Shown piece by piece: positions 1 to 24,904 of a DNA stretch of 25,804 bases. The stretch lies in the IMG/VR virus record IMGVR_UViG_2897352509_000001. The stretch is one strand, 5' to 3'. This DNA is from a virus (taxonomy: Duplodnaviria > Heunggongvirae > Uroviricota > Caudoviricetes). The number at the start of each line of letters is the position of its first letter. The first letter of the stretch is position 1. Both the position numbers and the translations under genes were made by a program. The notes below the pieces were generated by a model that was given only the letters and a program-made list of their open reading frames with translations, made no database searches and had not been told where the DNA came from.

Positions 1-912
1 TTACACATCATTAGTACCTTCCTTATTTTTTGACTGGGACAAATTTGGGACCGATGGGTTCAGGATCGAGTCTATTTGCCGTGCGTGTTCGGTAAGGTGA
101 TTAGGTGCAAGGTGAGCATATCGACGAACCATTTCGATAGACTCCCAGCCTCCCATTTCCTGTAACACTGACAACGGGACTCCGGCTTGAACCAGCCAAC
201 TTGCCCAGGTGTGTCTCAAGTCGTGAAATCTGAAATCATCAATACCAGCCCGTCTCAGCGCCGCTTTCCAGGCTGTGTTTGCGTCATACCGCATCTTCCT
301 TACTGTTGGCGCTTTCGTTCCGTCTGGTTTGGTACAGCTTTCCTTGTACACAAATACCCAACGGTGATGATTCCCGATTTGTTTTTTCAATACGCGACAT
401 GCAGTATCATTCAGCGCAACGCCAATTGCGCGGTTTGATTTACTCTCTTCCGGGTTTATCCATGCCACCCGGCGCTGCATATCTATTTGTTGCCATTCAA
501 GGTTGATGATGTTCGAGCGTCTTAAACCTGTTGCCAGTGCAAATTCAACAACAGACTTTAATGGCTCCGGACATTCATCAATCAGCCTTTGTGCTTCATG
601 GGGCTCCAGCCAGCGGATCCGTTTATTCTTTGGTTGAGGCACTTTAAGGAAGGTGCGAATAAGCGGGGAAATTCTTCTCGGCTGACTCAGCTTAGCAGGG
701 CCTTTATAAATGAAAGATGCGTAGCCTTCGTTGCAACGGACGCTGGTTTTGGCGTGTATTCTGGAACAGGTTTCCCTTTTTTTCTGCATGCTTCTGCCCT
801 GAGTTTCCAGTTTTCCTCATGACGCCGGTTCGTCATTTTCTGCATTGCTGAATAAATTTTTGATTCAGTAATGTCTCTTAGTTGCATTCCTGCGAAATGT
901 TGAAGCCAGAAT
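1..912 (-). pseudogene. int: Tyrosine integrase remnant (phage-21/DLP12 IntD-like), N-terminally deleted and frameshifted
   Basis: ORF 1..789 encodes the catalytic C-terminal domain ([15 protein letters not shown] ... VRRYAHL). The upstream integrase segment (IGFWLQHFAGMQLRDITESKIYSAMQKMTNRR) lies in another frame in ORF 687..974, so there is a frameshift near 645-693. The first 20 codons of ORF 687..974 are lambda N DNA read out of frame, so the integrase N-terminal arm-binding part is deleted. Confidence 0.75.
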
Positions 913-977
913 CCGATCTGCTTTCCATTGAGCCTGTTTCTCTGCGCGACGTTCGCGGCGGCGTGTTTGTGCATCCA
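913..977 (-). pseudogene. N: Antiterminator N, N-terminal stub only (MDAQTRRRERRAEKQAQWKA) fused by deletion to the integrase remnant
   Basis: The minus-strand translation in ORF 865..1110 contains the lambda N N-terminus preceded by the lambda N ribosome-binding region; sequence diverges from N after about codon 20. Confidence 0.7.
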
Positions 978-1132
978 TCTGGATTCTCCTGTTAGTTAGC
1001 TTTGGTTGTGTGTGGGAGTCGTAGTCCTGAACGAAAACACCCCGCAATGGCACATTGGCTGCTAATCCGGATTCGCACTTCCGGCCAATGCTTCGTTTCG
1101 TATCACACACACCAAAGCCTTCTGCTTTGAAT

Positions 1133-1168
1133 GCTGCCCTTCTTCAGGGCTTAATTTTTAAGAGCATC
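1133..1168 (-). promoter_or_regulatory. nutL (boxA plus boxB hairpin GCCCTGAAGAAGGGC)
   Basis: Reverse complement of 1133-1168 reads GATGCTCTTAAAAATTAAGCCCTGAAGAAGGGCAGC, which matches lambda nutL boxA/boxB as recalled. Confidence 0.7.
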
Positions 1169-1204
1169 ACCTTCATGGTGGTTAGTGCGTCCTGCTGATG
1201 TGCT

Positions 1205-1268
1205 TAGTATCACCGCTAGTGGTATTTGTGTCAACACCGCCAGAGATAATTTATCACCGCAGATGGTT
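1205..1268 (-). promoter_or_regulatory. OL1-OL2-OL3 operators with leftward PL promoter
   Basis: Three 17-bp lambda-type operator sites: tatcaccgctagtggta (1208-1224), caacaccgccagagata (1232-1248), tatcaccgcagatggtt (1252-1268). A -35 TTGACA and -10 GATACT are present on the minus strand. Confidence 0.8.
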
Positions 1269-1436
1269 ATCTGTATGTTTTTTATATAGATTTATTTTTT
1301 GCAGGGTTGTGTGGCTTGGGAGGTGATCGAGAGATCAGAATTGCGTTGTTTAGTGAGTTGCACCTATTAATTTTAAAATAAATACAATTGGTTATGAACC
1401 GCCCCGGGTTTCCTGGAGAGTGTTTTATCTGTGAAC

Positions 1437-2327
1437 TCAGGCTGCCAGATCATCGTTTCCGATGGAAGCATAATAAGCTTTTTCTGCTTCTGCCGGAGGA
1501 GTATGGCCCAGCCTTCCCAGCAATCGTCGATTGTTATACCAGTCCACCCACGTTAGTGTGGCCAGTTCCACTTCTGCACGGTTTTTCCAGCTCTTACGGT
1601 GTATTACCTCCGCTTTGTAAAGACCATTGATGCTCTCAGCCATCGCGTTGTCATACGAGTCGCCTGTACTCCCTGTTGATGCCAGTAATCCGGCTTCTTT
1701 TAGTCGCTCCGTATAGGCCAGTGACACATACTGAGAGCCTTTATCGCTGTGATGGATGGTGCCAGACGGACGACGGGCCCACAACGCCTGCTCCAGCGCA
1801 TCCAGCACGAATGTCGTTTCCATAGACGATGAGACCCGCCACCCCACGATGTATCCGGCAAACACATCAATGATAAACGCCACATAGACGAAGCCCTGCC
1901 ATGTGCTGACGTAAGTAAAATCAGCCACCCACAGCTGGTCAGGTCGTTCTGCCACGAACTGACGGTTTACGCGGTCGCCTGCGGCAACGGCTTTCCGGCT
2001 GATGGTCGTACGGACCTTTTTACCCCGGAGAACACCGGCAAGTCCCATAACCGCCATGAGACGTGCCACTGTACATCTGGCCACCCTGATTCCTTCCCGT
2101 AACAACTGACGCCAGACTTTACGCACACCGTACACCTGATGATTTTCATCGTATACGCGCTGTATCTCTCTCTTCAGCCAGTCGTCGTGCTGCGCACGGG
2201 CACTGCGTTTATCCGGATGATGTCGCTGTTGCTGACAATGGTAATACGTTGACGGGGCAATATGCAGTTCGCTGCATACCGGTCCGACCCCGTACTGCTC
2301 ACGCAGCTTATCCAGCAGTGGCATCAT
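1437..2327 (-). CDS. IS3-family transposase OrfB (DDE catalytic domain), expressed as OrfAB by -1 frameshifting
   Basis: 296-aa ORF with an integrase-core DDE region (…WVADFTYV…HSDKGSQY…[15 protein letters not shown]…). It overlaps the OrfA end in the -1 frame. Confidence 0.85.
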
Positions 2328-2650
2328 TTTTTCCAGAGGCGGTCGAACTCCGCCTTCGCAAAATAAGCGGAAGCCTGGCGAAGGATATCGTTACTGCGGC
2401 GCAGTTCACGATTTTCACGTTCCAGCTCTTTCAGACGCTGACGTTCAGCGCTGGTGAGCCCACCATCACCGCCCCCGGTATCCCGCTCATGCTGGCGAAC
2501 CCAGACACGCAGAGTCTCCGGCGTACAGCCAATCTTTGGGGCAATGGAACAAATTGCCGCCCACTGTGAGTCATATTCATCCTGACTTTCCAGAACCATA
2601 CGAATCGCCCGCTGACGGACTTCGGGGGAAAAACGAGTATTTTTAGTCAT
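2324..2650 (-). CDS. IS3-family transposase OrfA (helix-turn-helix / leucine-zipper part)
   Basis: 108-aa [18 protein letters not shown]...RLWKK, matching IS629 OrfA as recalled. It ends in an A6 run where a -1 shift enters the OrfB frame. Confidence 0.85.
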
Positions 2651-2704
2651 CCTGTTTACCTCTTTCTCAGGGAGTTTAGTCTCCAGGATTTCCGGGGCGG
2701 TTCA

Positions 2705-3059
2705 TTATGGCTGTTTTTCGAGTTTTTCTTAACTCTTCATGCAGCTCCGTTCTCAGAATATATGATTTTTCGAGTTTGAAATTCTTGCGACCAGGCGTCT
2801 TATTGCCAGGCTCAGGAAGTGGAAGGCGTGTTTGAATGTCGAGTGGTGGACAGTCATAGAAGTAAATTCTATAAAGCTCAAGCGGTTCCCTACGTTCTTG
2901 TGATTGACGTTTTCCATTAAGATGGGAAAGAACCATTGACCATATTACTTTCATTATGCATTGCGCAGTCAGTTCATGCTCGGCGAAGTGTTTACGATGC
3001 GTAGCATGAACACGCTGCATGAAAAAACCCGCATCAATTAAAATTGCTGCTTTCTTCAT
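2705..3059 (-). pseudogene. Accessory gene at the rexAB position of the immunity region, 3' end cut by the IS629 insertion; possible PIN/NYN-like fold
   Basis: ORF 2676..3059 starts MKKAAILIDAGFF... and its last residues read into the IS terminus. Joining the flanks across the IS restores a roughly 150-codon ORF. It is not RexA or RexB. The PIN/NYN assignment rests only on the N-terminal strand and is weak. Confidence 0.5.
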
Positions 3060-3070
3060 AAGAGTCCCAA

Positions 3071-3135
3071 AAAAATAGCCCAGAGCCGTTATGCAGATAT
3101 TAACAATTGTCTGCGAACGGGGCTGGGCTTGGTTT
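3071..3135 (-). terminator. Candidate intrinsic terminator downstream of cI (imperfect hairpin followed by a T-run on the minus strand)
   Basis: Inverted repeat CCGTTATGCAGA...TCTGCGAACGG with flanking CCCAG/CTGGG; plus-strand A7 at 3071-3077 gives a U-run after the hairpin on the minus strand. Confidence 0.35.
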
Positions 3136-3186
3136 AATTAATCTATGCCAAGTTGACTGTGCCGTCAACATAAAACTTACTTCCTA

Positions 3187-3903
<717 letters not shown>

Positions 3904-3910
3904 TTAAATC

Positions 3911-3974
3911 TATCACCGCAAGGGATAAATATCTAACACCGCGCGTGTTGACTGCTTTACCTCTGGCGGTGATA
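3911..3974. promoter_or_regulatory. OR3-OR2-OR1 operators with divergent PRM and PR promoters
   Basis: tatcaccgcaagggata (3911-3927), taacaccgcgcgtgttg (3934-3950), tacctctggcggtgata (3958-3974). PR -35 TTGACT and -10 GATAAT lie upstream of cro. Confidence 0.9.
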
Positions 3975-3991
3975 ATGGTTGCATGTACTAA

Positions 3992-4201
<210 letters not shown>

Positions 4202-4209
4202 ATAACCCC

Positions 4210-4241
4210 GCTCTTACACATTCCAGCCCTGAAAAAGGGCA
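4210..4241 (+). promoter_or_regulatory. nutR (boxA CGCTCTTAC plus boxB hairpin AGCCCTGAAAAAGGGCA)
   Basis: Exact lambda nutR elements as recalled, between cro and cII. Confidence 0.8.
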
Positions 4242-4319
4242 TCCAATTAAACCACACCTATGGTGTATGCATTTATTTGCATACATTCAATCAATTGTTA
4301 TCTAAGGAAATACTTACAT

Positions 4320-4613
4320 ATGGTTCGTGCAAACAAACGCAACGAGGCTCTACGAATCGAGAGTGCGTTGCTTAACAAAATCGCAATGCTTGGAACTGAG
4401 AAGACAGCGGAAGCTGTGGGAGTTGATAAGTCGCAGATCAGCAGGTGGAAGAGAGACTGGATTCCAAAGTTCTCAATGCTGCTTGCTGTTCTTGAATGGG
4501 GGGTCGTTGACGACGACATGGCTCGATTGGCGCGACAAGTTGCTGCGATTCTCACCAATAAAAAACGCCCGGCGGCAACCGAGCGTTCTGAACAAATCCA
4601 GATGGAGTTCTGA
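4320..4613 (+). CDS. cII: CII transcriptional activator
   Basis: 97-aa ORF from ATG 4320: MVRANKRNEALRIESALLNK...EQIQMEF, lambda CII as recalled. The listed ORF 4260..4613 is an upstream extension. Confidence 0.9.
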   Translation: MVRANKRNEALRIESALLNKIAMLGTEKTAEAVGVDKSQISRWKRDWIPKFSMLLAVLEWGVVDDDMARLARQVAAILTNKKRPAATERSEQIQMEF

Positions 4614-4645
4614 GGTCATTACTGGATCTATCAACAGGAGTCATT

Positions 4646-5568
4646 ATGACAAATACAGCAAAAATACTCAACTTCGGCAGAGGTAACTTTGCCGGACAGG
4701 AGCGTAATGTGGCAGATCTCGATGATGGTTACGCCAGACTATCAAATATGCTGCTTGAGGCTTATTCGGGCGCAGATCTGACCAAGCGACAGTTTAAAGT
4801 GCTGCTTGCCATTCTGCGTAAAACCTATGGGTGGAATAAACCAATGGACAGAATCACCGATTCTCAACTTAGCGAGATTACAAAGTTACCTGTCAAACGG
4901 TGCAATGAAGCCAAGTTAGAACTCGTCAGAATGAATATTATCAAGCAGCAAGGCGGCATGTTTGGACCAAATAAAAACATCTCAGAATGGTGTATCCCTC
5001 AAAACGAGGGAAAATCCCCTAAAACGAGGGATAAAACATCCCTCAAATTGGGGGATTGCTATCCCTCAAATTGGGGGATTGCTATCCCTCAAAACAGGGG
5101 GACACAAAAGACACTATTACAAAAGAAAAAAGAAAAGATTATTCGTCCGAGAATTCTGGCGAATCCTCTGACCAGCCAGAAAACGATCTTTCTGTGGTTA
5201 AACCGGATGCTGCAATTCAGAGCGGCAGCAAGTGGGGAACAGCAGAAGACCTGACCGCCGCAGAGTGGATGTTTGACATGGTGAAGACCATCGCGCCATC
5301 AGCCAGAAAACCGAATTTTGCTGGGTGGGCTAACGATATCCGCCTGATGCGTGAACGTGACGGACGTAACCACCGCGATATGTGTGTGCTTTTCCGCTGG
5401 GCCTGCCAGGACAACTTCTGGTCCGGTAACGTGCTGAGTCCGGCCAAACTCCGCGACAAGTGGACCCAGCTCGAAATCAACCGTAACAAGCAACAGGCAG
5501 GCGTGACAGCCAGCAAACCAAAACTCGACCTGACAAACACTGACTGGATTTACGGGGTGGATTTATGA
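4646..5568 (+). pseudogene. O: Replication initiator O, frameshifted by a 23-bp duplication of one ori iteron
   Basis: The N-terminal part (ORF 4646..5254) and the C-terminal part (ORF 5056..5568, ...WIYGVDL) are in different frames. The switch falls exactly where the 23-bp unit atccctcaaattgggggattgct occurs twice in tandem (5038-5060 and 5061-5083). The total span is 23 bp longer than the 900-bp lambda O as recalled. Confidence 0.75.
4994..5100 (+). repeat. Lambda-type replication origin iterons, five copies instead of the four recalled for lambda, followed by an AT-rich stretch
   Basis: Direct repeats of ATCCCTCAAAAC/ATTG-GGGG type at 4994, 5014, 5038, 5061 and 5084; the third and fourth are identical 23-bp units. 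Confidence 0.8.
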
Positions 5569-5876
5569 AAAACATCGCCGCACAGATGGTTAACTTTGAC
5601 CGTGAGCAGATGCGTCGGATCGCCAACATCGATAACCAGGACATGACGATATCGGTCTGGGTCTTTCCTGATACTGATATTTCAGATGTATCGCGTGAGT
5701 TAATTGCGGCAATTAAACAGGGGTATCTAACAGTAAAAGCCGCCGGGGTATGGGCGGGGGGCATTGAAACACCTTCGGTGGAAACTCCATCGGAAGGCTC
5801 TAAATTTTTTGGTTTTGATATGGATAACGAATTCATCAGTGGTTTTGATGTAGGGGCATGGGGAGTATTACTCTGA
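5565..5876 (+). CDS. Chimeric ORF: first 21 codons of replication protein P fused by deletion to the C-terminal end of a tail/baseplate protein
   Basis: [21 protein letters not shown] is the lambda P N-terminus; the sequence diverges at about 5628 into unrelated tail-module coding sequence. Its stop overlaps the next start (TGATG). Confidence 0.6.
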
Positions 5877-6670
5877 TGGCGAAAAATGACTTTAAAGCGT
5901 TTGCAACTGATCGAAATGCCAATGTTATGTCGCAGGAGGAATGGGAAGCGTTGCCTGCGCTTATATCCGGATTTACAGCAGGGAAAGCATCCAGTGCGCA
6001 AGTCAATAAGGTTATTCGGCAGGCCAGCTTTATTGCTGCAGCTCTGGCCCAGTTTGTAAGTGATAAAACGCAACGGGATGTGCTTGATAATGGTGATCTG
6101 CCCGGTTGGCACGACCAGCTGCTTACCGCGCTTCGTGCGCTGCTGTTAAGCCGCAAGAATCCGTTTGGCGATATCAAATCGGATGGCACGGTGAAAACGG
6201 CTCTCGAAAACCTTGGTTTGGGAGAAGGTGCTCCAGCTATTGGCGTTCCGTTCTTCTGGCCGTCCGCTGCAATGCCAAATACTGTAATCGACAGCTGGTC
6301 CTGTATGGTGTTTTTGAAGTTCAACGGCGCGAAATTCTCTGCCACTGATTATCCTGTGCTGGCGAAAGTGTTTCCTTCGCTGGTATTACCTGAAGCCCGC
6401 GGTGATTTCATTCGTATCTGGGATGACGGGCGAGGTGCAGACGGTGGTCGCGAATTATTAAGCTGGCAGGCAGCTACAAACTTTTCTCAGTTTGCCGGGA
6501 ATATAGGCGAAGGTGCGGGACACGCAATTAACTTTCATGATGGCATCGCCGGAAATCAGCCAGGATTTTCACGATTTAATTTCACCAGTAACTCTGTGGG
6601 TGATGGTGTGAATTTTGTTGCAGTCAGACCGCGAAATATTGCATTTAACTTTCTGGTGAGGGCTAAATAA
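5858..6670 (+). CDS. stf: Side tail fibre protein (Mu S / P2 H / e14 StfE-like); the C-terminal part lies inside the invertible segment
   Basis: 270-aa ORF with tail-fibre hallmarks (...[28 protein letters not shown]...). The start may instead be the ATG at 5876, which is coupled to the upstream stop. The Pin crossover site sits inside the ORF at 6204-6226. Confidence 0.75.
6204..6226. repeat. Left recombination site of the Pin invertible segment (gix/pix-like)
   Basis: tcgaaaaccttggtttgggagaa matches the reverse complement of 8059-8084 at 20 of 23 positions, so the two form inverted repeats flanking a ~1.85 kb segment. Confidence 0.7.
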
Positions 6671-7263
6671 TGAAACCTGTTTTTGATGAAAATGGGCTGG
6701 CTACAGTGCCGGGCGATATGCGTTGTTTTTATTATGATGCTGAAACATCTGAGTATACGGGCTGGTCTGATGAATATATTAATACTGGCGTAAGTATGCC
6801 CGCCTGTTCCACTGGTATTGACCCTGGCGAAAACATTCCGGGAAGAGTGGCAGTATTTACAGGTAAGGGATGGAGCCATGAAGAAGACCATCGCAATGAG
6901 ACTGTTTACTCAATCGAAAATGGCGCAGCTGTTACAGTGGATTATATCGGTGCCATCAAAGACGGTTATGTCACGATTTCACCGTTAACGCCATACGATA
7001 AATGGGATGGTGAAAAATGGGTGACAGATACTGAGGCACAACACGGTGCCGCAGTAGAAGCGGCAGAAGCACAGCGCCAGTCACTGATTGATGCAGCAAT
7101 GGCTTCCATCAGTCTGATTCAACTGAAATTGCAGGCCGGACGTAAACTGACGCAGGCAGAAACAACCAGACTTAACGCTGTGCTGGATTACATTGACGCG
7201 GTGACGGCAACAGATACCAGCACCGCGCCGGATGTCATCTGGCCTGAACTGCCGGAGGCGTAG
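6670..7263 (+). CDS. tfa: Tail fibre assembly protein (Tfa / Mu U-like)
   Basis: 197-aa ORF whose start overlaps the stf stop (TAATG). Shares the conserved Tfa C-terminal motif (...LDYIDA...TSTAPDVIWPELPEA) with the inverted copy at 7235-7687. Confidence 0.8.
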   Translation: MKPVFDENGLATVPGDMRCFYYDAETSEYTGWSDEYINTGVSMPACSTGIDPGENIPGRVAVFTGKGWSHEEDHRNETVYSIENGAAVTVDYIGAIKDGYVTISPLTPYDKWDGEKWVTDTEAQHGAAVEAAEAQRQSLIDAAMASISLIQLKLQAGRKLTQAETTRLNAVLDYIDAVTATDTSTAPDVIWPELPEA

Positions 7264-7687
7264 GCCATTCAATATCTGGCGCACTGGAGGTATCAACCAG
7301 TTCCAGTGCGTCCAGATAATCCAGCCACAAATTATATTGCGCCAGTTCCTCACCTTTCAGACGACCAATAGCGGCTTTACCGGGCCATTGCTTACTGTTC
7401 ATGTATTCGTTGGCCTGGTTAATTAGTAGCTGTCTTTCTGATTCAGTAATTTCAATAAGCTCTTCATGCGTGGGTGGAGGAATATCTGCCCACGCAGGCA
7501 GCCCATCATCTCCGGCAATACGGATTTTTCCTTGTGGCGGTTCAGCCATAAACTCACTGATAATATTTTGATTTACTTCCTTAGCGTCTGATAAATCCCA
7601 TCCCTCTGATTTATATTTATCAATCATATCCACAGGGAAAAAAGCATTATGCCTTGCGCTATAAACATATTCGTCCATATAAATCAC
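7235..7687 (-). CDS. Alternative tail fibre assembly protein (Tfa') in inverted orientation
   Basis: 150-aa ORF ending ...LDYLDALELVDTSSAPDIEWPTPPAVQAR, paralogous to the Tfa C-terminus; convergent with tfa as in Mu G, P1 C and e14 P segments. Confidence 0.75.
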   Translation of the reverse strand: MIYMDEYVYSARHNAFFPVDMIDKYKSEGWDLSDAKEVNQNIISEFMAEPPQGKIRIAGDDGLPAWADIPPPTHEELIEITESERQLLINQANEYMNSKQWPGKAAIGRLKGEELAQYNLWLDYLDALELVDTSSAPDIEWPTPPAVQAR

Positions 7688-7698
7688 CCTGAATAAAA

Positions 7699-8058
7699 TT
7701 ACTCACCAACAGCCCACCAACTGTAATTCATCGATACCGTGTCGCTGGTTGATGACGTTCTGTAAGCAGAATTAAAGCCGGTTAACGTTGGGCCTTCTGC
7801 AGTCATCACGAACCCTCGCCCAGCGCCTAAAGGCGCACCGCCATCACCAGAATGAGTAAGCATGGCGCAGTCCGCTTTTTTGGGGAAAGGGATGCTGAAT
7901 GTAATTCTCATTGTTTGCGTCGATAATGTCGGCGTAACCGCACCACGACCATATTGCAGGATTTTCCCGTTGGGTAATTTCATCCATCCATCACCACTGG
8001 CAAAAGAGGCCATGTCCGGTATCTGATTTTCCCCTGTCCCCACATCCCGTTTTGCCGC
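7699..8058 (-). CDS. Alternative tail fibre variable C-terminal segment (Sv'), promoterless in this orientation
   Basis: Minus-strand ORF 7699..8112 encodes a tail-fibre tip-like sequence with no credible start. It would fuse to the constant stf part after inversion. The segment boundary is set at the right recombination site. Confidence 0.6.
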   Translation of the reverse strand, partial: AAKRDVGTGENQIPDMASFASGDGWMKLPNGKILQYGRGAVTPTLSTQTMRITFSIPFPKKADCAMLTHSGDGGAPLGAGRGFVMTAEGPTLTGFNSAYRTSSTSDTVSMNYSWWAVGE

Positions 8059-8084
8059 TTCTCCCAAACCAACGTTTATGAAAA
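8059..8084. repeat. Right recombination site of the Pin invertible segment
   Basis: ttctcccaaaccaacgtttatgaaaa, inverted relative to 6204-6226, lying immediately upstream of pin. Confidence 0.7.
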
Positions 8085-8138
8085 TGCAGAAATAACGAGC
8101 AAATGGCATCATTCCTGCTTTTGTCAGGGGGATCTACC

Positions 8139-9619
<1,481 letters not shown>

Positions 9620-9702
9620 CTAACCCTTTGAATTTACATAGCGCAAAAAGATACCTTTCCTCATAATGTGAGCTAATTTTATGTTTCGTTTGATGATCGG
9701 GT

Positions 9703-9764
9703 CGGTCTCGAAAACCGGAGTAGGGGCAACTCTACCGGGGGTTCAAATCCCCCTCTCTCCGCCA
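9703..9764 (+). other. tRNA-Ser(CGA) 3' fragment (serU-like, anticodon arm to CCA), probable prophage right attachment-site remnant
   Basis: CGGTCTCGAAAACCGGAGTAGGGGCAACTCTACCGGGGGTTCAAATCCCCCTCTCTCCGCCA matches the 3' ~62 nt of E. coli serU as recalled. No complementary 5' acceptor strand (GGAGAGA) occurs upstream, so this is not a complete tRNA. Confidence 0.75.
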
Positions 9765-10346
9765 CTTTATCAATGACTTATCTCCCGACTTCCCGTCTTG
9801 CTTTTCCTAAACAGAACAATCGTAGAATATTCTTGAAGGGTTAGATCGTCACTGTTTTCTGTTCGATACTGTGACATTCAGCACTTGATTCGCTATGGAT
9901 CTGACAGGAAGGTTTTGAGCGAAAATCTGCAGTTATTCAGTCGTTTTCTTATCGGTCACCATTATTCTTTTAGACATTGATCCTACAAAGCTGCCGCAAA
10001 GTTGGTGGTGGGAACTGAAGTTGCGTAGAGAAGGGGTCAATACCCGGAGGCAAACATGGGCTGGCAAAAGTGTAGCGGTATTAGGCGCAGCTATTTAGCC
10101 TAGTTATGTTTTATGAAAACTTGATATCATATAAGTGTCTTACTTATTGGCTGTAAATAAGTTTTTCCTAAGGAATTGTTTCTTGAGTATCATTTGTAAC
10201 TGTAACGGAATTTATAATCCTTTGCTTTATTGTTACGGTATTTTTTATCACACCCTATTTTTAGTGGTTTTTTATACTGAAGTTTGGCAAAGTGAACTTT
10301 ATATACATATACTTCATCCTGGTTTCAGTTAAATTGGGGGGATGAT

Positions 10347-11090
10347 ATGGCAACTACATGTTCAGTTATATTGATTTTGGAGTCCTTTGATGTTTATTTC
10401 GGAAAAGAGAGTGTGTTTCTGGAGAGAGGTTCATCTGTACTTGTCGACTCTAGCTCTAGAGATTTTTTCCTGACATATCCTGAAAGAGTGATAGTGGCGG
10501 ATTTTGGCGCTGAGTTTATTAGTCGCTATTTGAAAGCTAATAACTTAAGGGATATTTCTGATTGTAGGGAATATCCATCTTATTTAAAAATAAACTTTGC
10601 TGACTTCAGTTTAATTAAAGGATTAATTAGTTGGGCTAATCACTGTGCTGAATACATAGAAATTTTTGATGAGTCTATTGCTTTTACATGTCTCTCTGCA
10701 TTTTCTTCTGAAAAACAATTTGGAGTATTTCTGTTTGGATGTTTGAAAAGCACAGGGGCTAAAGTTAAAACGATTATTCATACGGATTTATCTGCACCAT
10801 GGCGTCTTAAGGATATATCATCAAGATTATATCTCAGCGAAAGTTTACTAAAGAGGAAATTGAAAGAAGAGGGGGTATCATTCAGTAAGATCATACTTGA
10901 TGAGAGGATGCAAATGGCTGAATATTTACTCAGCACTCGTTGTTATCCTATTAGTAAAGTAGCTAAGGTCTGTGGTTATGCCAGTGTCTCATACTTTACT
11001 TATGTATTTAGACGTTATTTTGGTGTTTCTCCAAGTCAATACTCTCAGAGGAGTTCAGAAAGTAAAATTCTTACTCACCAGGGAATCTGA
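10347..11090 (+). CDS. AraC-family transcriptional regulator (AppY/GadX-like), in an AT-rich island
   Basis: 247-aa ORF with a C-terminal AraC-type double HTH (...ISKVAKVCGYASVSYFTYVFRRYFGVSPSQY). Low GC and a long AT-rich upstream region point to horizontal acquisition. Confidence 0.8.
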   Translation: MATTCSVILILESFDVYFGKESVFLERGSSVLVDSSSRDFFLTYPERVIVADFGAEFISRYLKANNLRDISDCREYPSYLKINFADFSLIKGLISWANHCAEYIEIFDESIAFTCLSAFSSEKQFGVFLFGCLKSTGAKVKTIIHTDLSAPWRLKDISSRLYLSESLLKRKLKEEGVSFSKIILDERMQMAEYLLSTRCYPISKVAKVCGYASVSYFTYVFRRYFGVSPSQYSQRSSESKILTHQGI

Positions 11091-11092
11091 TC

Positions 11093-11560
11093 ATTGTTCT
11101 TGCCCCCTTATTTCCAGACAGGGGGGGTATCTTAAGTTAACGTTACCCGCTGACGTCGATATTCTCGCGGAGAGCGATAACCCAACGCACTGTGCGGATG
11201 GTTTTCATTGTAATGTTCGATCGCCACTGCAAGATTATGCAATGCCGTTCTTACATTCGGTTTCGGCATGAACGCGATGTAGTCTTCCTTCATCGTTTTC
11301 ACGAACCTTTCTGCAATTCCATTACTCTGAGGACTGCTGATTGCCGTTGTGCAGGGCTCCAGATTCAACTCTCTGGCGAACTGCCGTGTTTCATGCGCTC
11401 TATACGCTGAACCGTTATCTGTCAGCCACTGGATGGACTGTTCCGGTACTTTATCGCCAAAGCGTTTTTCTATCGCTCCTAACATGACATCCTGCACTGT
11501 CGCTTTATCGTAACCTCCCGTGCTTGCGGCCCAGTCTATGGCTTCACGATCGCAACAGGC
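11093..11560 (-). mobile_element. IS2-family (IS3 superfamily) remnant: outer end plus the 3' third of the transposase gene
   Basis: The terminus ttgcccccttatttccagaca resembles the IS2 end. The minus-strand translation matches the IS2 InsD C-terminus (...TVQDVMLGA...WLTDNGS.YRA.ETRQFAR...[12 protein letters not shown]) and extends back to CCDREA with no start codon. Homology breaks at about 11560. Confidence 0.75.
11132..11497 (-). pseudogene. Truncated IS2-like transposase OrfB (C-terminal part)
   Basis: 121-aa [51 protein letters not shown]..., equivalent to the last ~125 residues of InsD; the upstream part is interrupted by stops. Confidence 0.75.
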
Positions 11561-19848: not shown

Positions 19849-20057
19849 GTGTCTATGCCTCAGCGCATCCATTTTTAGGGCTGTGGTGTTTATGCTTACA
19901 CCATGGTTCTATCGAGATAATGGTAGTCCGGGCGGGGCAGCCTCACGAAGCGCCGGTTTCCAATGTTGCCGGTTACGCCAACCCCGTCTGGGCTACCACC
20001 AGTGAAATTGGCGTTTCCAGTGGTAGCAGTCACATGCAAACATTGGAGGTTGCCACT

Positions 20058-20252
20058 ATGGCTACGACCCTCACCCCGTCACACCCGCAGTTTGTCTTTG
20101 TGTTTGCCGCCGTTCGTCGCGCAGACCGTAAACCCCGTATTTGCATGCTTCGCACTGTCTCCTGCGATGAGCGTTCCGCGCGCCGTTTGCTAGTCCGAGA
20201 TTATGTACTCTCCCTTTCTGCACGGCTGCCTGCCGGGGAGGTGACGCTATGA
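20058..20252 (+). CDS. Small hypothetical protein, first gene of the replication operon
   Basis: ATG at 20058, 7 nt after GGAGG; about 64 aa ([25 protein letters not shown]...). Its stop overlaps the next start (ATGA). Confidence 0.45.
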
Positions 20253-20470
20253 ACCAGTTTGAGATTTCCTACGACGATGTTGTAAGGCTGAAACATTTAC
20301 GCAATGTGGGTGAGTATGTAACTGGCATGGCAGCCCTGCAGGACTGTTATGAAAAGCCAGCAGGTGCCCAATGCGAACAACTGGTTTCCCTCATTTATCT
20401 GATGACAGAGCAACTGGATGGAGTGGTGCAACGCTGCCATGACGACCTGATGAATGCGGAGGTGGCCTGA
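20249..20470 (+). CDS. Hypothetical protein (73 aa), translationally coupled
   Basis: Start overlaps the upstream stop and its stop overlaps the downstream start. Confidence 0.55.
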
Positions 20471-20793
20471 TGATATGCTGTGAATCTCTTCTGGCACTTC
20501 GTGCCGCTCTGTATCGCCGTGCCGTTGCCTGTGCCTGGCTGGCTCTAAGCAATCATCAGGAACGTTATTCCGGCCTGACGCTCGCTGAACTTGAAGATGC
20601 CATAGCCCGCGAGCTGGAAGGGTTCTATCTGCGCCAGCATGGGCAGCAAAGAGGGCTGGAAATTGCCTGCGCGTTGCTTTCGGATCTGATGGAGTCGGGG
20701 CCGCTTAAAGCCTGTCCGGTTCTCTCACTGCTCGGAATGACGGTCATGGATGAACTTTGTTCCCGTCACCTCAACAAACCAGCGCTGCACTAA
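20470..20793 (+). CDS. Hypothetical protein (107 aa), immediately upstream of the primase
   Basis: Coupled ORF (TGATG overlap); occupies the position of the small genes preceding alpha in P4. Confidence 0.55.
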
Positions 20794-20806
20794 GGAGGGC
20801 CGCACA

Positions 20807-23140
20807 ATGTCAGGAATGAAAGTTAGCCAGGCTGAGAAAGCAGCTCGGGGTCACTGGTCAAGAATTTTACCTGCGCTGGGCGTAAATGTACTGAAAAATC
20901 GGCACCAGCCCTGCCCGGTCTGTGCCGGGAAAGACCGCTTTCGATTTGATGACCAGGAAGGGCGGGGAACGTGGTTCTGTAACCAGTGCGGGGCAGGTGA
21001 TGGCCTGGCGCTTGTAAGTAAAGTACTGGATGTAGGCATTAGTGAAGCGGCAGACAGAATAAACGGCATTATCGGAAACCTGCTGCCAGTATCTCAGGGA
21101 ATGCTTGAATCTGGTTCTCCTGAAAAAGAGGACGGGAGAAAAGCTGCAGCAGTGCTGGCTGCCCGTTTGTTTGATAAGTCCCGCCAGACCACTGGCAATG
21201 CCTATCTGACGAGTAAAGGGTTTCCTGCACTGCCTTGCCGGGAATTAACCGCTATGCATAAAGTCGGTGGTGTGGCATTTCGCGCGGGAGATCTTGTCGT
21301 TCCATTGTATGCAGATGGAGAGCTGGTAAATCTGCAGTTAATCAACGCTAATGGGGGCAAATGCTTCCTTAAAGGCGGTCAGGTTAAGAATGCCTTTTAC
21401 CTGGTTGAAGGTACTGCCAAAGCAGCCAAACGGCTCTGGATAGCGGAAGGATATGCCACCGCACTTACTATCAACTATCTGACTGGCGATGCTGTCATGG
21501 TGGCCTTTTCGTCCGTCAATTTCCTTTCCCTGGCGAGCATTGCCTGCAGTGAGTACCCAACGCACCAGATAATTATTGCTGCTGACCGCGATCTCAACGG
21601 TGCGGGGCAAACAAGGGGCGCAGCTGTTACCGGGGCCTGCAATTGCACAATGGCGCTCCCGCCTGTGTTTGGTGACTGGAACGATGCATTCACGCAAAAC
21701 GGCGAAGAAGCCACCCGGCATGCAATTCATGAAGTAATAAAACCAGCTGTTGCCAGCCCCTTCGACACAATGAGCGAAGCTGAATTTACCGCGCTGAGCG
21801 TCAGCGAAAAAGCGCAGAGGGTAGTGGATCACTATAAAAATTCACTGGCAGTAGACCCGAACGGGCAGCTCCTTTCACGCTATGAGGCGGGGGCCTGGAA
21901 AGTTATCTATTACGCCGATTTTGCCCGTGATGTCGCTGCGCTGTTTCAGCGCCTCGACGCACCTTTTTCATCCGCGAAAATTGCGTCTCTCGTGGAAACC
22001 CTCAAACTGATCGTTCCGCAACAGCAGAATCCGGCGCGGCAACTTATCGGATTTCGCAACGGTGTGCTCGATACCCGGACAGGATTGTTCAGCCCGCACG
22101 ATAAGAAGCACTGGTTACGTACGCTGTGCGAGGTGGATTACACGCAGCCCGTTGACGGTGAGTCACTGGAAACCCATGCCCCGGCATTCTGGCGCTGGCT
22201 GGATCGTGCCGCAGGTTTTAATCCTGAAAAACGGGACATTATTCTGGCTGCATTGTTTATGGTGCTGGCTAACCGTTATGACTGGCAGCTGTTTCTGGAG
22301 GTCACTGGCCCTGGCGGAAGTGGAAAGAGTATTCTTGCTGAAATAGCAACCATGCTGGCGGGTGAAGATAACGCGACCTCGGCAACCATTGAAATGCTTG
22401 AGTCGCCAAGAGAACGAGCTGCGTTAATAGGTTTTTCACTGATTCGACTTCCCGACCAGGAAAAGTGGAGCGGTGACGGGGCCGGACTAAAAGCCATCAC
22501 TGGCGGCGATGCGGTATCCGTTGATCCCAAATATCAGAACGCCTATTCAACCCACATCCCGGCGGTCATCCTGGCTGTGAACAATAATCCGATGCGCTTC
22601 ACTGATCGTAGTGGTGGAGTTTCACGCCGAAGGGTGATCCTGCATTTCCCCGACCAGATAGCCCCGGAGGAACGCGATACCCAGCTCAAAGAGAAAATTG
22701 CCAGTGAGCTAGCGGTGATTGTTCGCCAGCTTATGCAGCGTTTCAGCGACCCAATGAGTGCCAGGACATTGCTTCAGTCACAGCAGAACTCCGATGAAGC
22801 GCTCACCATCAAACGTGATGCTGATTCAGCTTTTGATTTTTGCGGCTACCTTGAGGTCCTACCTGACACCACGGGCATGTTTATGGGGAACGCTAATATT
22901 GTTCCACGTCAGCCTCGAACTTACCTCTACCATGCCTATCTGGTCTACATGGAGGCTAACGGCTATAAAAATACGCTCAGTCTGACCATGTTTGGCAAGG
23001 GGCTACCGTTAATGCTCAAGGAATATGGGCTGCAGTATGAGAAACGACGGACCAATCAAGGAATGCAGACTAATCTGGCCCTAAGAGAGGAAAGCAATGC
23101 TGACTGGTTGCCAAAATGCGATGAGTTTGCAGCGAAATAA
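20807..23140 (+). CDS. P4 alpha-like primase-helicase (zinc-binding primase domain plus SF3/D5-type helicase)
   Basis: ATG at 20807 preceded by AAGGAGGG. Has a Cys-rich zinc motif (CPVCAGKDRFRF...WFCNQCGAGDG) and a P-loop (TGPGGSGKS). 777 aa. The listed ORF 20750..23140 is an upstream extension. Confidence 0.9.
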   Translation: MSGMKVSQAEKAARGHWSRILPALGVNVLKNRHQPCPVCAGKDRFRFDDQEGRGTWFCNQCGAGDGLALVSKVLDVGISEAADRINGIIGNLLPVSQGMLESGSPEKEDGRKAAAVLAARLFDKSRQTTGNAYLTSKGFPALPCRELTAMHKVGGVAFRAGDLVVPLYADGELVNLQLINANGGKCFLKGGQVKNAFYLVEGTAKAAKRLWIAEGYATALTINYLTGDAVMVAFSSVNFLSLASIACSEYPTHQIIIAADRDLNGAGQTRGAAVTGACNCTMALPPVFGDWNDAFTQNGEEATRHAIHEVIKPAVASPFDTMSEAEFTALSVSEKAQRVVDHYKNSLAVDPNGQLLSRYEAGAWKVIYYADFARDVAALFQRLDAPFSSAKIASLVETLKLIVPQQQNPARQLIGFRNGVLDTRTGLFSPHDKKHWLRTLCEVDYTQPVDGESLETHAPAFWRWLDRAAGFNPEKRDIILAALFMVLANRYDWQLFLEVTGPGGSGKSILAEIATMLAGEDNATSATIEMLESPRERAALIGFSLIRLPDQEKWSGDGAGLKAITGGDAVSVDPKYQNAYSTHIPAVILAVNNNPMRFTDRSGGVSRRRVILHFPDQIAPEERDTQLKEKIASELAVIVRQLMQRFSDPMSARTLLQSQQNSDEALTIKRDADSAFDFCGYLEVLPDTTGMFMGNANIVPRQPRTYLYHAYLVYMEANGYKNTLSLTMFGKGLPLMLKEYGLQYEKRRTNQGMQTNLALREESNADWLPKCDEFAAK

Positions 23141-23147
23141 CTGACCT

Positions 23148-23168
23148 AAGACCGGCTGTGCCGGTCTT
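23148..23168. terminator. Strong hairpin between the convergent primase and 23273..24229 genes (AAGACCGGctgtgCCGGTCTT)
   Basis: 8-bp perfect stem, 8 nt after the primase stop. It lacks a clear U-run on either strand, so it may be a bidirectional terminator or an RNA-stability element. Confidence 0.45.
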
Positions 23169-23272
23169 AAATCCGCTACAGGAAATTATCTCAAAATATA
23201 TATCGATAAAATTTAAAAGTTATATGCTAAGGCGTCAGCGGAAAATGCATCTAATTCATTGTTAGATGATGT

Positions 23273-24229
23273 TTATTTTTGAATTGATTTAAACATCCCA
23301 TCGAGTTGTAATTTATTTATGTCGGTTTTCTTTATGGCTTTAATTAAGTTTTCAATAACTTCCAAAGAAAAAATTACATCTTTCTTTTCAATTCTAACCC
23401 CCCCGTGGTGGCTGCAAGCATTAAGGATGTCCTTTGTAATTTCAACATCATTTTTCATTAATGGTTCATAGTCCAGAGCCTCAATAACAGAAACTAAACT
23501 ACCTAGCATTTGCTCTTGGTATTGAACGTTGTTTAAATGCATTATACGAATATTAACAAGCATGAGAATATATTCTAAATATCTCCTGGCAGTATTTCCT
23601 TTCTCTTGTAAAGAATCACGATCATATTCCTCAATACTCATGACTTCATTATGTAAAGAGGCTATTTTGTGCTCTGCTAATGAAATATTTATCGCATCCA
23701 TGAGGTTTCGTGAGAAGCCTGTAGATGTAACATGACCATTTGCGGGCCTTGTTAAAATACATGTAGTATAGCAATTTATATTTGGGGTCTGGATTGTCTC
23801 ATTTACTCTTTTAACCGTTCTATAAACGTCTACCATATAAGAACCTGAGTTTTCAAATGAACATGAAGAGCATTTTGTATTATATATTCTATTTAGAGAT
23901 AACTGATTGTGATAGTATCCCTTTAAGAAAGCATATATAGTGTCATTAAACTCGACAAACACAACGGACTCAATATATATATGGAATTTATCATTGGGGT
24001 GCCACTCTAATTCAAGTCTTCTTGTAGAGTCATCAAAGGAAAAGTTTGAAATAAAATCCCAGTTACCTAAATCTATAAAATCAACGATATTTCTACCTGC
24101 ACCATGGATATTTTTATTTATTAAAGTTGTGATTGAGTTTTTTATAATGTCCCAATCATGAATTTCATGATCGAATTTATTATTGATGGTTTCTTTTATT
24201 TGATTGGAAAAGTTTGAATAACTAGTCAC
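23273..24229 (-). CDS. AT-rich hypothetical protein (318 aa) between the primase and the right attachment repeat; candidate second cargo gene
   Basis: Long clean ORF with low GC like the int-side cargo. I recognise no motif in it. Confidence 0.6.
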   Translation of the reverse strand: MTSYSNFSNQIKETINNKFDHEIHDWDIIKNSITTLINKNIHGAGRNIVDFIDLGNWDFISNFSFDDSTRRLELEWHPNDKFHIYIESVVFVEFNDTIYAFLKGYYHNQLSLNRIYNTKCSSCSFENSGSYMVDVYRTVKRVNETIQTPNINCYTTCILTRPANGHVTSTGFSRNLMDAINISLAEHKIASLHNEVMSIEEYDRDSLQEKGNTARRYLEYILMLVNIRIMHLNNVQYQEQMLGSLVSVIEALDYEPLMKNDVEITKDILNACSHHGGVRIEKKDVIFSLEVIENLIKAIKKTDINKLQLDGMFKSIQK

Positions 24230-24758
24230 TTGTTAGCCTCAAAATTAATAATGAGTATTAAAATTTAATTGATATTGTCTATAAAATGTAGCGATGCAAT
24301 TTTATTGCAACGAAATGATTTTTACAACATACCATTATCGCTAAACAAAATCGCACCCATCAAATCAACTTACGTTACAATCACTACAAAGCGATTGCAT
24401 TTAAATTCAAAACAGTTTTCTGTTGGGCGCATTTTTTGTTGTACTGGACTAAAGAGAAAAAATGGGGTAAGGAACAAATACCTTCCGTGCTCAAAAATTA
24501 GGTTTTTATGCACTTATTAATCAGTCAAGGTGAACAGTAAAGTGTTCACTTCTTATCAATCGTTAATTTCATATCTTTTTGAATATTAATGAAAAAAAAC
24601 ACAATGAGTAGTATGAACAGTTATCCCCCAAAAAAAGTTTTTTCTGCCTTGAGAATGCGCGGAAAGCGAACGCCTTCACCAATGTGTATAGGGGTGTGTG
24701 TAGTTTAAATCTTCTATTTTAATTTATGTATTAAAATCATTGTGTTGGTGGCGATTAT

Positions 24759-24778
24759 TGGTTCCTATTATCGCACCA
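24759..24778 (+). repeat. Right attachment repeat of the P4-like satellite (degenerate copy of the tRNA-Thr 3' end)
   Basis: tggttcctattatcgcacca versus ggttcgactcctattatcggcacca at 11869-11893; the shared core is cctattatcg(g)cacca. Confidence 0.65.
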
Positions 24779-24904
24779 TTTAAATCAAGTAGTTACCCCA
24801 TATTCAAATACACCACGTTTCCTCCTGTGCCGTATTTATGCCATTGTAACCCTGGCAATTAATCAAAATACTGTTCTGACATCAGGCAATGCAGGTGCAG
24901 ACAT

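What the first reader, a model, noticed from the sequence alone, without database searches (positions are those of the whole stretch)
23273..24229. Orphan AT-rich 318-aa gene between the primase and the right att repeat: possible second cargo gene
Seen in sequence: a long uninterrupted minus-strand ORF with cargo-like low GC, convergent with the primase and separated from it by a strong hairpin; no recognisable motifs. Inference: its position at the far end of the satellite and its composition suggest an accessory gene (abortive infection or anti-phage single-gene system, or a toxin) rather than satellite core machinery.
Basis: inference. Interest (0 to 1): 0.5.

Follow-up and report, generated by a model that had tools for sequence, protein, structure and literature searches.

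The report
Orphan HEPN-fold cargo gene in P4-like satellite
The 318-codon AT-rich gene is real: it is a 1.36-kb cargo cassette in a known variable slot of the E. coli O157:H7 P4-like satellite Sp2, and it encodes an unnamed two-domain protein with a predicted RNase-type (HEPN) domain, most likely a single-gene anti-phage or toxin module that nobody has tested.

Summary
**Observation: confirmed.** The ORF at 23273-24229 (-) is real. The chance of an open frame this long at this composition is about 2e-12, and dN/dS is 0.06-0.13. It has GC 0.31 against 0.52 for the primase, and it is convergent with alpha across the P4 t-alpha hairpin. It is ECs_0304 / WP_000205213.1 of Sakai prophage Sp2.

**Cargo status: shown.**
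- An empty-slot sibling satellite defines a 1,358-bp insertion (23169-24526) between t-alpha and crr.
- Other siblings carry a type IV restriction HNH enzyme or a SIR2 protein in the same slot.
- Homologues at 45-80% identity sit in a conjugative element, a prophage, integrase islands and beside R-M genes, with no constant partner gene.

**Best reading (inferred, about 0.5).** A self-contained sensor-plus-HEPN RNase abortive-infection or toxin protein.

**Novelty.** A new variant of a known kind. Moderate interest.

The parts
23273..24229 (-). Target gene: 318 aa, GTG start, TAA stop. Equivalent to ECs_0304 / WP_000205213.1, annotated 'hypothetical protein'.
   Evidence: purifying selection with dN/dS 0.06-0.13; family alignments
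23735..24229 (-). Codons 1-165: N-terminal domain of two helices plus about 10 beta strands. D50, D58 and W76 are nearly invariant (motif VDFIDxGxWD). Presumed sensor or regulatory domain.
23276..23722 (-). Codons 170-318: C-terminal HEPN-fold helical domain.
23561..23587 (-). Codons 215-223, R-R-Y-L-E-Y-I-L-M. R215 is invariant (136/136) and E219 is in 134/136. Position 223 is K in 99/136 members, giving the E-x3-[KR] HEPN motif.
   Evidence: motif definition from PMC3710099
23399..23422 (-). Codons 270-277, N-A-C-S-H-H-G-G. N270, S273, H274 and G277 are invariant or nearly so. This is where Rx4-6H would lie, but the residue in the R position (269) is L or A and never R.
23169..24526 (.). 1,358-bp cargo insertion relative to the empty-slot sibling satellite (strain TOE3): the ORF plus 104 bp of 3' flank and 297 bp of 5' flank.
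   Evidence: blastn breakpoints; P4 homology stops at about 23168; GC 0.313 across the ORF and the gap up to attR
23143..23173 (.). Hairpin (14-bp stem) between the convergent genes. Homologue of the P4 t-alpha terminator.
24237..24240 (-). GAGG Shine-Dalgarno, 7 nt spacer before the GTG start codon.
24254..24363 (-). Three sigma-70-like promoter matches upstream of the gene. Their number is not above chance in this AT-rich DNA.
   Evidence: 7 sites found; shuffles give a mean of 10.0
24527..24625 (.). crr-like region holding P4-type iteron copies (GGTGAACA, TGTTCACT, TGTTCAT). Homologous to the iteron-rich region that directly follows t-alpha in strain TOE3.
   Evidence: P4 crr annotation
24681..24702 (+). 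Probable integrase arm-type repeat (TGTGTATAGG). Its partner is at 12004-12025.
   Evidence: P4 'attP arm sequence repeat' features; conserved in TOE3
24760..24778 (+). attR core: a decayed copy of the thrW 3' end (GGTTC..CTATTATCG-CACCA).
11849..11893 (+). attL: a 45-nt copy of the 3' half of tRNA-Thr (thrW).
20807..23140 (+). P4 alpha-type primase-helicase, the core gene on the left of the slot.

Best explanation
The gene is a self-contained cargo cassette in the minor defence hotspot (alpha primase to att) of the P4-like satellite Sp2.

Its product has two domains. The N-terminal domain is beta-rich and previously undescribed. The C-terminal domain has a HEPN fold.

Proposed mechanism:
- The protein is made at a low level from its own AT-rich upstream region.
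- The N-terminal domain keeps the HEPN domain silent until it senses an infection cue.
- The HEPN domain, probably as a dimer, then cleaves cellular and/or phage RNA (tRNA, mRNA or rRNA) without a metal ion.
- Catalysis would use an unusual site built from R215, E219, N270, S273 and H274 instead of the canonical Rx4-6H.
- Translation stops and the infection is aborted. This protects sibling cells, the satellite and its helper prophage.

Shown: the gene is real and under selection; it is cargo; the slot is variable; the fold is HEPN; the residue conservation pattern.

Inferred: RNase activity, autoinhibition by the N-domain, and the anti-phage phenotype.
For: **Real and selected.** dN/dS is 0.06-0.13 against homologues from three different elements, and the chance of such an ORF is 1.7e-12.

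**Cargo.**
- P4 homology ends at the t-alpha terminator.
- The empty-slot sibling TOE3 defines the 23169-24526 insertion.
- Sibling satellites carry an mREase_IV-type HNH enzyme (E 1e-10) or a SIR2 protein (E 4e-9) in the same slot.
- PMC13586616 reports that 7% of P4 defence systems lie between the primase and att.

**Mobile single-gene unit.**
- The 80%-identical Citrobacter copy shares nucleotide homology over the ORF only, and sits among T4SS, methylase, ArdC and type I R-M genes.
- Other copies are in a lambdoid prophage, beside integrases, in a Providencia satellite-like element and next to an MmeI-type R-M gene.
- No neighbouring gene recurs.

**Candidate active site.**
- R215 is invariant and E219, N270, S273 and H274 are in at least 94% of 136 members spanning 15-80% identity.
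- E219-x3-K223 matches the HEPN E-x3-[KR] motif.
- An upstream Arg/Glu pair plus a downstream His is catalytic in PrrC (R320, E324, H356) and in RnlA (R255, E258, H323).
Against: The defining HEPN arginine of Rx4-6H is missing in every member (L or A at position 269). Several HEPN families that lose the motif are non-catalytic (PMC3710099).

No member reaches significance against any curated HEPN, Abi or defence model in Pfam, NCBIfam or PADLOC, even across 75 diverse members.

The N-domain has no informative structural match, so its sensor role is a guess.

The defence neighbourhoods are anecdotal (about 10 contexts), not a statistical enrichment.

No experimental data or literature exist for this gene. 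It is absent from the held DefensePredictor supplement tables.
Confidence: 0.5

Rival explanations
1. The HEPN domain is non-catalytic. It serves as an RNA-, nucleotide- or protein-binding module, as in MtlR or the C-terminal domains of nucleotidyltransferases. The protein would then be a regulator or adaptor, for example modulating helper-phage or host gene expression for whichever mobile element carries it.
Against: Invariance of a polar and charged set (R215, E219, N270, S273, H274) across members only 15-20% identical is what an active site looks like. Families described as 'conserved H but lacks R' are known among Abi-linked HEPNs (c2405). A regulator would not be expected to move alone between satellites, prophages, conjugative elements and R-M neighbourhoods.
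Confidence: 0.15
2. It is a selfish toxin or addiction module that stabilises the mobile element, with no immune role. The N-terminal domain would act as a fused cis-antitoxin.
Against: No antitoxin gene is conserved with it, and homology in the Citrobacter element is limited to the ORF. There is no MNT neighbour. The ORFs in the 5' flank are not conserved in the diverged P4-like copy. A fused, co-stable antitoxin gives no post-segregational killing. The slot's alternative occupants are defence genes.
Confidence: 0.15
3. It is an anti-defence (counter-defence) factor that helps the mobile element establish itself in new hosts.
For: In the Citrobacter conjugative element it lies between an orphan N6/N4 methyltransferase and the anti-restriction gene ArdC.
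Against: This rests on a single context. The other contexts are integrase-proximal islets, a prophage accessory region and the neighbourhood of R-M genes. The P4 primase-att slot is described as a defence hotspot, and its other occupants are mREase_IV and SIR2. No known anti-defence family has this architecture.
Confidence: 0.08
4. It is a satellite core or replication accessory gene, for example one linked to crr or alpha function.
For: It is adjacent to alpha and crr. A diverged P4-like lineage carries the homologue in the same slot (L017, about 75% nucleotide identity).
Against: It is absent from P4 and from siblings TOE3, A30 and PC-NDM34. It is present in elements that are not satellites. 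Its composition is foreign to the element.
Confidence: 0.02

Closest known systems
RnlA / LsoA (RNase LS) anti-T4 HEPN toxins
   Same: They have a similar size (about 350 aa) and the same layout: alpha/beta N-terminal domain(s) followed by a C-terminal HEPN domain. Their active site uses an upstream Arg/Glu pair (R255, E258) plus a His (H323) (PMC8266594). They are encoded on mobile elements. Foldseek lists full-length RnlA among its weak top hits (E 0.04).
c2405 family: AbiTii N-domain fused to a DUF4145-like HEPN (Anantharaman et al. 2013, PMC3710099)
   Same: The layout is the same: an alpha+beta N-terminal domain of about 180 aa plus a C-terminal HEPN described as 'conserved H but lacks R'. 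The probable c2405 protein of CFT073 has the same motif pair, TCRRLLE ... LTNKGVH, against TARRYLE ... LNACSH here.
   Different: The profile-profile comparison is not significant (hhalign Prob 1.1%, E 0.049, 30 columns at the RRxLE motif only). None of 75 members hits the Pfam AbiTii or HEPN models. [quoted passage not shown]
PrrC / RloC anticodon nucleases
   Same: Their catalytic triad is R320-x3-E324 ... H356 (PMC1484252). It has the same R-x3-E spacing as R215-x3-E219 ... H274. Their HEPN RNase is held latent by an N-terminal regulatory domain in the same polypeptide and is fired by phage infection. Three family members weakly hit Pfam AAA_13 (best E 7.8e-4).
   Different: The N-terminal regulator of PrrC/RloC is an ABC-type NTPase, and no P-loop is present here. 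PrrC is embedded in a type Ic R-M operon. I did not determine which part of the AAA_13 model the weak hits fall on.
MNT-HEPN toxin-antitoxin toxins and HEPN-T proteins (1wwp, 2hsb, 7ae2, 5yep)
   Different: They are stand-alone proteins of about 120-140 aa with a canonical Rx4-6H, paired with a nucleotidyltransferase antitoxin gene. Neither feature is present here.
Defence cargo of the P4-like 'primase to att' minor hotspot (PMC13586616)
   Same: The position between alpha and att is the same, and the content is variable. Sibling elements carry type IV restriction or SIR2 genes there.
   Different: This occupant matches no defence model. It is not among the systems named in that paper (Crouga, Bandua, Aernus, Toga, Reve, Hailong).

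Membership tests
HEPN superfamily | Four-helix up-and-down HEPN fold | tested here: met
HEPN superfamily | Rx4-6H catalytic motif | tested here: not met
   N270-x3-H274 is conserved, but the residue where R should be (269) is L or A in all 136 members.
HEPN superfamily | Second conserved acidic residue within an E-x3-[KR] motif | tested here: met
   E219 is in 134/136 members and K223 in 99/136. Motif defined in PMC3710099.
HEPN superfamily | Metal-independent endoRNase activity | not testable with these tools
   Requires biochemistry.
c2405 / AbiTii-HEPN family | HEPN with conserved H but lacking R | tested here: met
c2405 / AbiTii-HEPN family | N-terminal AbiTii domain | tested here: not met
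   None of the 75 members hits the Pfam AbiTii model. hhalign aligns nothing in the N-terminal halves.
c2405 / AbiTii-HEPN family | Detectable profile-level homology | tested here: not met
   hhalign Prob 1.1%, E 0.049. Caveat: the c2405 profile was shallow (Neff 2.5).
RnlA/LsoA toxin-antitoxin | Cognate antitoxin gene (rnlB-like) adjacent | tested here: not met
   No conserved neighbouring gene in about 10 contexts. Homology is limited to the ORF in the Citrobacter element.
RnlA/LsoA toxin-antitoxin | TBP-like N-terminal domains | tested here: inconclusive
PrrC/RloC anticodon nucleases | N-terminal ABC-type NTPase domain | tested here: not met
   No P-loop domain is detected. The N-domain is a beta-rich fold.
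PrrC/RloC anticodon nucleases | R-x3-E ... H catalytic triad | tested here: met
   R215-x3-E219 ... H274 is invariant, against R320, E324 and H356 in PrrC. This is a motif-level match only.
MNT-HEPN type II toxin-antitoxin | Adjacent minimal nucleotidyltransferase antitoxin | tested here: not met
   No such gene lies in the 1,358-bp cassette or in the other contexts.
Known anti-phage defence families (PADLOC v2) | Significant match to a defence-protein model | tested here: not met
   0 hits for the query. There are no consistent hits across 75 members.
P4-like satellite accessory (hotspot) cargo | Located in a slot whose content varies among otherwise syntenic satellites, and absent from P4 | tested here: met
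   hotspot described in PMC13586616
P4 core genes | Present at this position in P4 and in most P4-like satellites | tested here: not met
   The gene is absent from P4, TOE3, A30 and PC-NDM34. Only 306 of 5,426 complete E. coli genomes carry it, essentially the O157:H7 lineage.

The most novel reading that the evidence does not exclude
ECs_0304 founds a new single-protein RNA-targeting immune family. In it, a previously undescribed beta-rich sensor domain licenses a HEPN nuclease whose catalytic centre has been rebuilt without the hallmark Rx4-6H arginine, with R215 and E219 supplied from helix 2 and N270, S273 and H274 from the helix 3-4 junction. That would be a distinct solution to HEPN catalysis and regulation, and possibly one with a new trigger or RNA target.
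Probability: 0.25. Interest if true: 0.6.

Novelty: new variant of a known kind. Interest (0 to 1): 0.45.

Why it matters
The gene is present in essentially every complete O157:H7-lineage genome sampled (306 genomes). In 25 years of annotation it has never been given a function.

If it is an active defence or toxin gene, three things follow:
- It adds an uncatalogued single-gene system to the immune repertoire of a major pathogen.
- It adds a concrete, clonable 1.36-kb example for the little-studied primase-att hotspot of P4-like satellites.
- It offers a natural case for asking how a HEPN nuclease can work, or what else it does, without its signature arginine.

If it is inactive, it shows that fold-plus-position arguments for defence genes can mislead.

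Tried and rejected
**Curated libraries.**
- Pfam, PADLOC and NCBIfam on the query found nothing significant; PHROGs gave only a marginal hit to a family of unknown function (phrog_4000, E 0.0039).
- Pfam, PADLOC and NCBIfam on 75 diverse members found nothing consistent.
- Pfam on 10 long variants that carry N- or C-terminal extensions found nothing. Searching those extensions against PDB sequences also found nothing.

**Solved structures and fold searches.**
- A profile search against PDB sequences found no relatives.
- Foldseek of the full model against the PDB found nothing significant.
- The afdb50 library was unavailable.

**N-terminal domain hypotheses.**

**P4 iterons.** The octamer TGTTCACC occurs only once exactly in the window, which is not above chance. 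The crr was identified instead by homology to strain TOE3.

**att site.** The D7 repeat was first taken for the att site. I now read it as integrase arm-type sites, and the real core is the thrW fragment.

**c2405 family membership.** Tested by hhalign and not supported. The 320-aa neighbour of c2405 is unrelated.

**DefensePredictor.** Candidate WP_097419291.1 (311 aa) is unrelated. A signature-peptide search of those supplements found no hits.

**Literature.** Searches for WP_000205213, CP-933I and ECs0304 returned nothing.

**Wider sampling.**
- The search for related loci in species-representative genomes gave only one extra locus.
- A second profile search of the 5.8-billion-protein set found no new annotated relatives.

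**RNA.** Rfam finds no RNA family in or near the cassette.

Full report
**1. The observation.**

The ORF listing returns a minus-strand ORF at exactly 23273..24229: 318 aa with a GTG start.
- A GAGG Shine-Dalgarno lies 8 nt upstream.
- Homologues from other genera start at the same residue, M-T/S-x-Y-x-x-F.
- Given the ORF's base composition, 318 codons without a stop has probability 1.7e-12.
- GC is 0.313. The alpha primase has 0.522, the flanking LysR gene 0.50, and the satellite's main cargo hotspot (13241-16516) 0.309.
- The gene is convergent with the primase, whose stop is at 23140.
- A 14-bp-stem hairpin at 23143-23173 lies between the two genes.

**2. Where the window comes from, and the element's limits.**

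The region is 99.8% identical to E. coli O157:H7 genomes. 306 of 5,426 complete E. coli genomes carry at least 80% of 23100-24900.

In strain Sakai the element is annotated 'prophage Sp2, P4-like phage' (310,628-323,514). This maps to window 11877-24762. The gene is ECs_0304, a hypothetical protein. In EC4115 it is WP_000205213.1.

The gene order is: int, a cargo hotspot that RefSeq names an ABC-three-component system, then delta-psu-sid, the C4/isrK immunity RNAs (Rfam), the alpha primase, the target gene, and att.

The att sites are as follows.
- attL is a 45-nt copy of the thrW 3' half, at 11849-11893.
- attR is a decayed core at 24760-24778.
- Genomes with an empty site align only from about 24757 rightwards, and those matches overlap tRNA-Thr.
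- The 22-nt repeats at 12004-12025 and 24681-24702 lie inside both ends. They resemble the annotated 'attP arm sequence repeats' of P4.

**3. Cargo or core?**

P4 DNA homology covers only the alpha 3' end and the annotated t-alpha terminator, and stops at window ~23168. In P4, t-alpha is followed directly by crr, then the arm repeats, then attP.

Three sibling satellites sit at the same thrW/pao locus, with alpha genes 78-92% identical. They differ in the slot:
- A30 carries a 285-aa HNH protein. It matches the PADLOC type IV methyl-directed restriction model at E 1e-10.
- PC-NDM34 carries a 365-aa protein that matches PADLOC SIR2 models at E 4e-9.
- TOE3 carries nothing.

blastn against TOE3 gives two blocks:
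- window 22904-23168, which is the alpha 3' end plus the terminator;
- window 24527-24900, which is the iteron-rich crr, the arm repeats, the att core and the flank.

These blocks are only 20 bp apart in TOE3. Sp2 therefore carries a 1,358-bp insertion, 23169-24526. It consists of the ORF, 104 bp of 3' flank and 297 bp of 5' flank.

**4. A mobile single-gene unit.**

Homologues are few: 36 clusters in a 5.8-billion-protein set. All are 'hypothetical', none has a Pfam domain, and all come from Enterobacterales plus Aeromonas. An exhaustive profile search of 1.84 billion cluster representatives finds 152 hits, 36 of them below 1e-30.

Their contexts differ:

| Homologue | Identity to target | Context |
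|---|---|---|
| Diverged E. coli P4-like lineage (P0004) | 77% aa, ~75% nt through the alpha end and terminator | Same slot |
| Citrobacter (P0002) | 80% | Conjugative element, between an orphan N6/N4 methylase and ArdC, near type I R-M and an AAA_15/21 ATPase. Homology covers the ORF only |
| Pantoea (P0012) | 58% | Lambdoid prophage; in a second contig, beside a methylase/HATPase cluster |
| Providencia (P0009) | 71% | Satellite-like element: Ogr/Delta immediately upstream, Toprim primase and dCTP deaminase a few kb away |
| E. coli (P0032) | 45% | Island directly after a P4-type integrase |
| Proteus, Serratia, Aeromonas | 44-49% | Small chromosomal islets |
| Distant member (P0036) | 27% | Beside an MmeI-type R-M gene |

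No neighbouring gene recurs. The small ORFs in the 5' flank are not conserved in the diverged P4-like copy. dN/dS is 0.06-0.13.

**5. The protein.**

Pfam, PADLOC and NCBIfam give nothing significant for the query, and PHROGs only a marginal hit to a family of unknown function (phrog_4000, E 0.0039). Pfam, PADLOC and NCBIfam give nothing consistent for 75 diverse members either. There is no sequence relative in the PDB.

AlphaFold2 with the family alignment gives pLDDT 88.6 and pTM 0.84. The model has two parts:
- residues 1-165, two helices plus about ten strands;
- residues 170-317, a helical bundle.

**6. The candidate active site.**

Conservation across 136 family members:

| Position | Conservation (of 136) |
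|---|---|
| R215 | 136 |
| E219 | 134 |
| H274 | 134 |
| N270 | 130 |
| S273 | 128 |
| G277 | 122 |
| K223 | 99 |
| D50 (N-domain) | 131 |
| D58 (N-domain) | 129 |
| W76 (N-domain) | 120 |

These residues remain invariant or nearly so in an alignment that goes down to 15% identity.

The stretch L-N-A-C-S-H occupies the place of the HEPN 'R-[NDH]-x3-H' motif. However, the arginine position is L or A in every member.

E219-x3-K223 matches the E-x3-[KR] motif that accompanies many HEPN active sites (PMC3710099).

An upstream Arg/Glu pair plus a downstream His is experimentally catalytic in two anti-phage HEPN RNases:
- PrrC, with R320, E324 and H356 (PMC1484252);
- RnlA, with R255, E258 and H323, alongside R318 (PMC8266594).

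HEPN families described as 'conserved H but lacks R' are already on record, for example c2405, which is fused to the Abi-associated AbiTii domain.

I located the probable c2405 protein in CFT073. [quoted passage not shown] LTNKGVH. Even so, the profile-profile comparison with this family is not significant: Prob 1.1%, E 0.049, 30 columns. The resemblance is at the level of architecture and motif. It is not demonstrable homology.

**7. Most likely mechanism.**

Shown:
- the gene is a selected, mobile, partner-less cargo gene in a variable defence slot;
- the protein has a confident HEPN fold;
- an invariant polar constellation sits where HEPN active sites lie.

Inferred:
- the HEPN domain is a metal-independent RNase, probably acting as a dimer like other HEPNs;
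- the N-terminal domain holds it latent and responds to an infection cue;
- activation arrests translation and aborts infection, which is the logic of RloC, PrrC and HEPN-type Abi proteins.

My confidence is about 0.5 for this full chain, about 0.9 for 'cargo gene with a HEPN-fold domain', and about 0.65 for 'defence or toxin function of some kind'.

**8. Rivals.**
- A non-catalytic HEPN regulator or adaptor. The missing arginine is the main argument for it. The invariant polar set and the gene's mobility argue against it.
- A pure addiction toxin with a fused cis-antitoxin. No partner gene exists, and a fused antitoxin gives no post-segregational killing.
- An anti-defence factor. This rests on the single ArdC/methylase context.
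- A satellite core function. This is refuted.

**9. Novelty and score.**

The location is a described minor hotspot, and HEPN effectors are common in defence. A specialist would not be very surprised.

What is new:
- an uncurated family of about 150 representative clusters;
- an N-terminal domain without a clear structural relative;
- a family-wide HEPN site that lacks the signature arginine;
- presence throughout the O157:H7 lineage with no function ever assigned, and no literature.

I rate it a new variant of a known kind, with interest 0.45.

Noticed in passing
window 24350-24368 (compare 24770-24788): A second, decayed att-core-plus-flank-like copy lies inside the cargo cassette, 120 bp upstream of the gene start. 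ATCGCACCCATCAAATCAA matches ATCGCACCATTTAAATCAA at 84%. It may be a scar of the integrase-mediated or tandem-element recombination event that delivered the cassette.
   Followed up: partly
window 24527-24625 versus L024 (TOE3) 5867-5960: Sp2's crr-like region keeps only about 3 P4-type iteron copies. The empty-slot sibling TOE3 has about 6 in the homologous stretch. Sp2 replication may be impaired.
   Followed up: partly
window 13241-16516: The main int-to-psu hotspot carries genes that RefSeq names an 'ABC-three component system' plus an AAA ATPase. In Sakai the ATPase (ECs_0293) is annotated as a pseudogene spanning what appear here as three separate ORFs (14671-15330, 15361-15750, 15950-16516). 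This first cargo system may be broken.
   Followed up: no
L022 5948-6805; L023 5931-7028: Sibling P4-like satellites at the same thrW/pao site carry different genes in the alpha-att slot. One has an HNH protein matching PADLOC mREase_IV (E 1e-10). The other has a 365-aa protein matching PADLOC SIR2 models (E 4e-9), which RefSeq calls merely 'hypothetical'.
   Followed up: partly
window 19757-20003: Rfam finds P4-type immunity RNAs here: C4 antisense RNA, its a1/b1 targets, and isrK. They overlap the 185-aa ORF that RefSeq annotates as 'host cell division inhibitor Icd-like protein' (19695-20252).
   Followed up: no
window 12004-12025, about 12050, and 24681-24702: TGTGTATAGG repeats lie just inside both element ends. 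They are conserved in TOE3 and resemble P4's annotated attP arm repeats, so they are probably integrase arm-type binding sites.
   Followed up: partly
window 1-11500: Upstream of Sp2 lies the decayed lambda-like prophage Sp1: CI/Cro/CII, frameshifted O/P replication genes, tail-fibre genes, the pinE invertase and a GIY-YIG protein. It also holds an IS3-family element whose ALIL frameshifting pseudoknot is at 2253-2369, and a partial IS at about 11132-11497. Together with Sp2 this forms a tandem array at thrW.
   Followed up: no
L031 (IMG/VR UViG_2923272612_000005): This is an Sp2 variant, 98-99% identical, with an internal deletion of window 16761-20677. It has lost delta-psu-sid and the immunity region but retains int, the first hotspot, alpha and the target gene.
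   Followed up: no
L021 2573-4768 (E. coli CFT073, island at tRNA-Ser): The probable 'c2405' HEPN protein (390 aa, C-terminal helix-hairpin-helix, named 'ComEA family DNA-binding protein' by RefSeq) sits next to a 320-aa hypothetical protein with no Pfam domain. The RefSeq name hides its predicted HEPN/Abi nature.
   Followed up: partly
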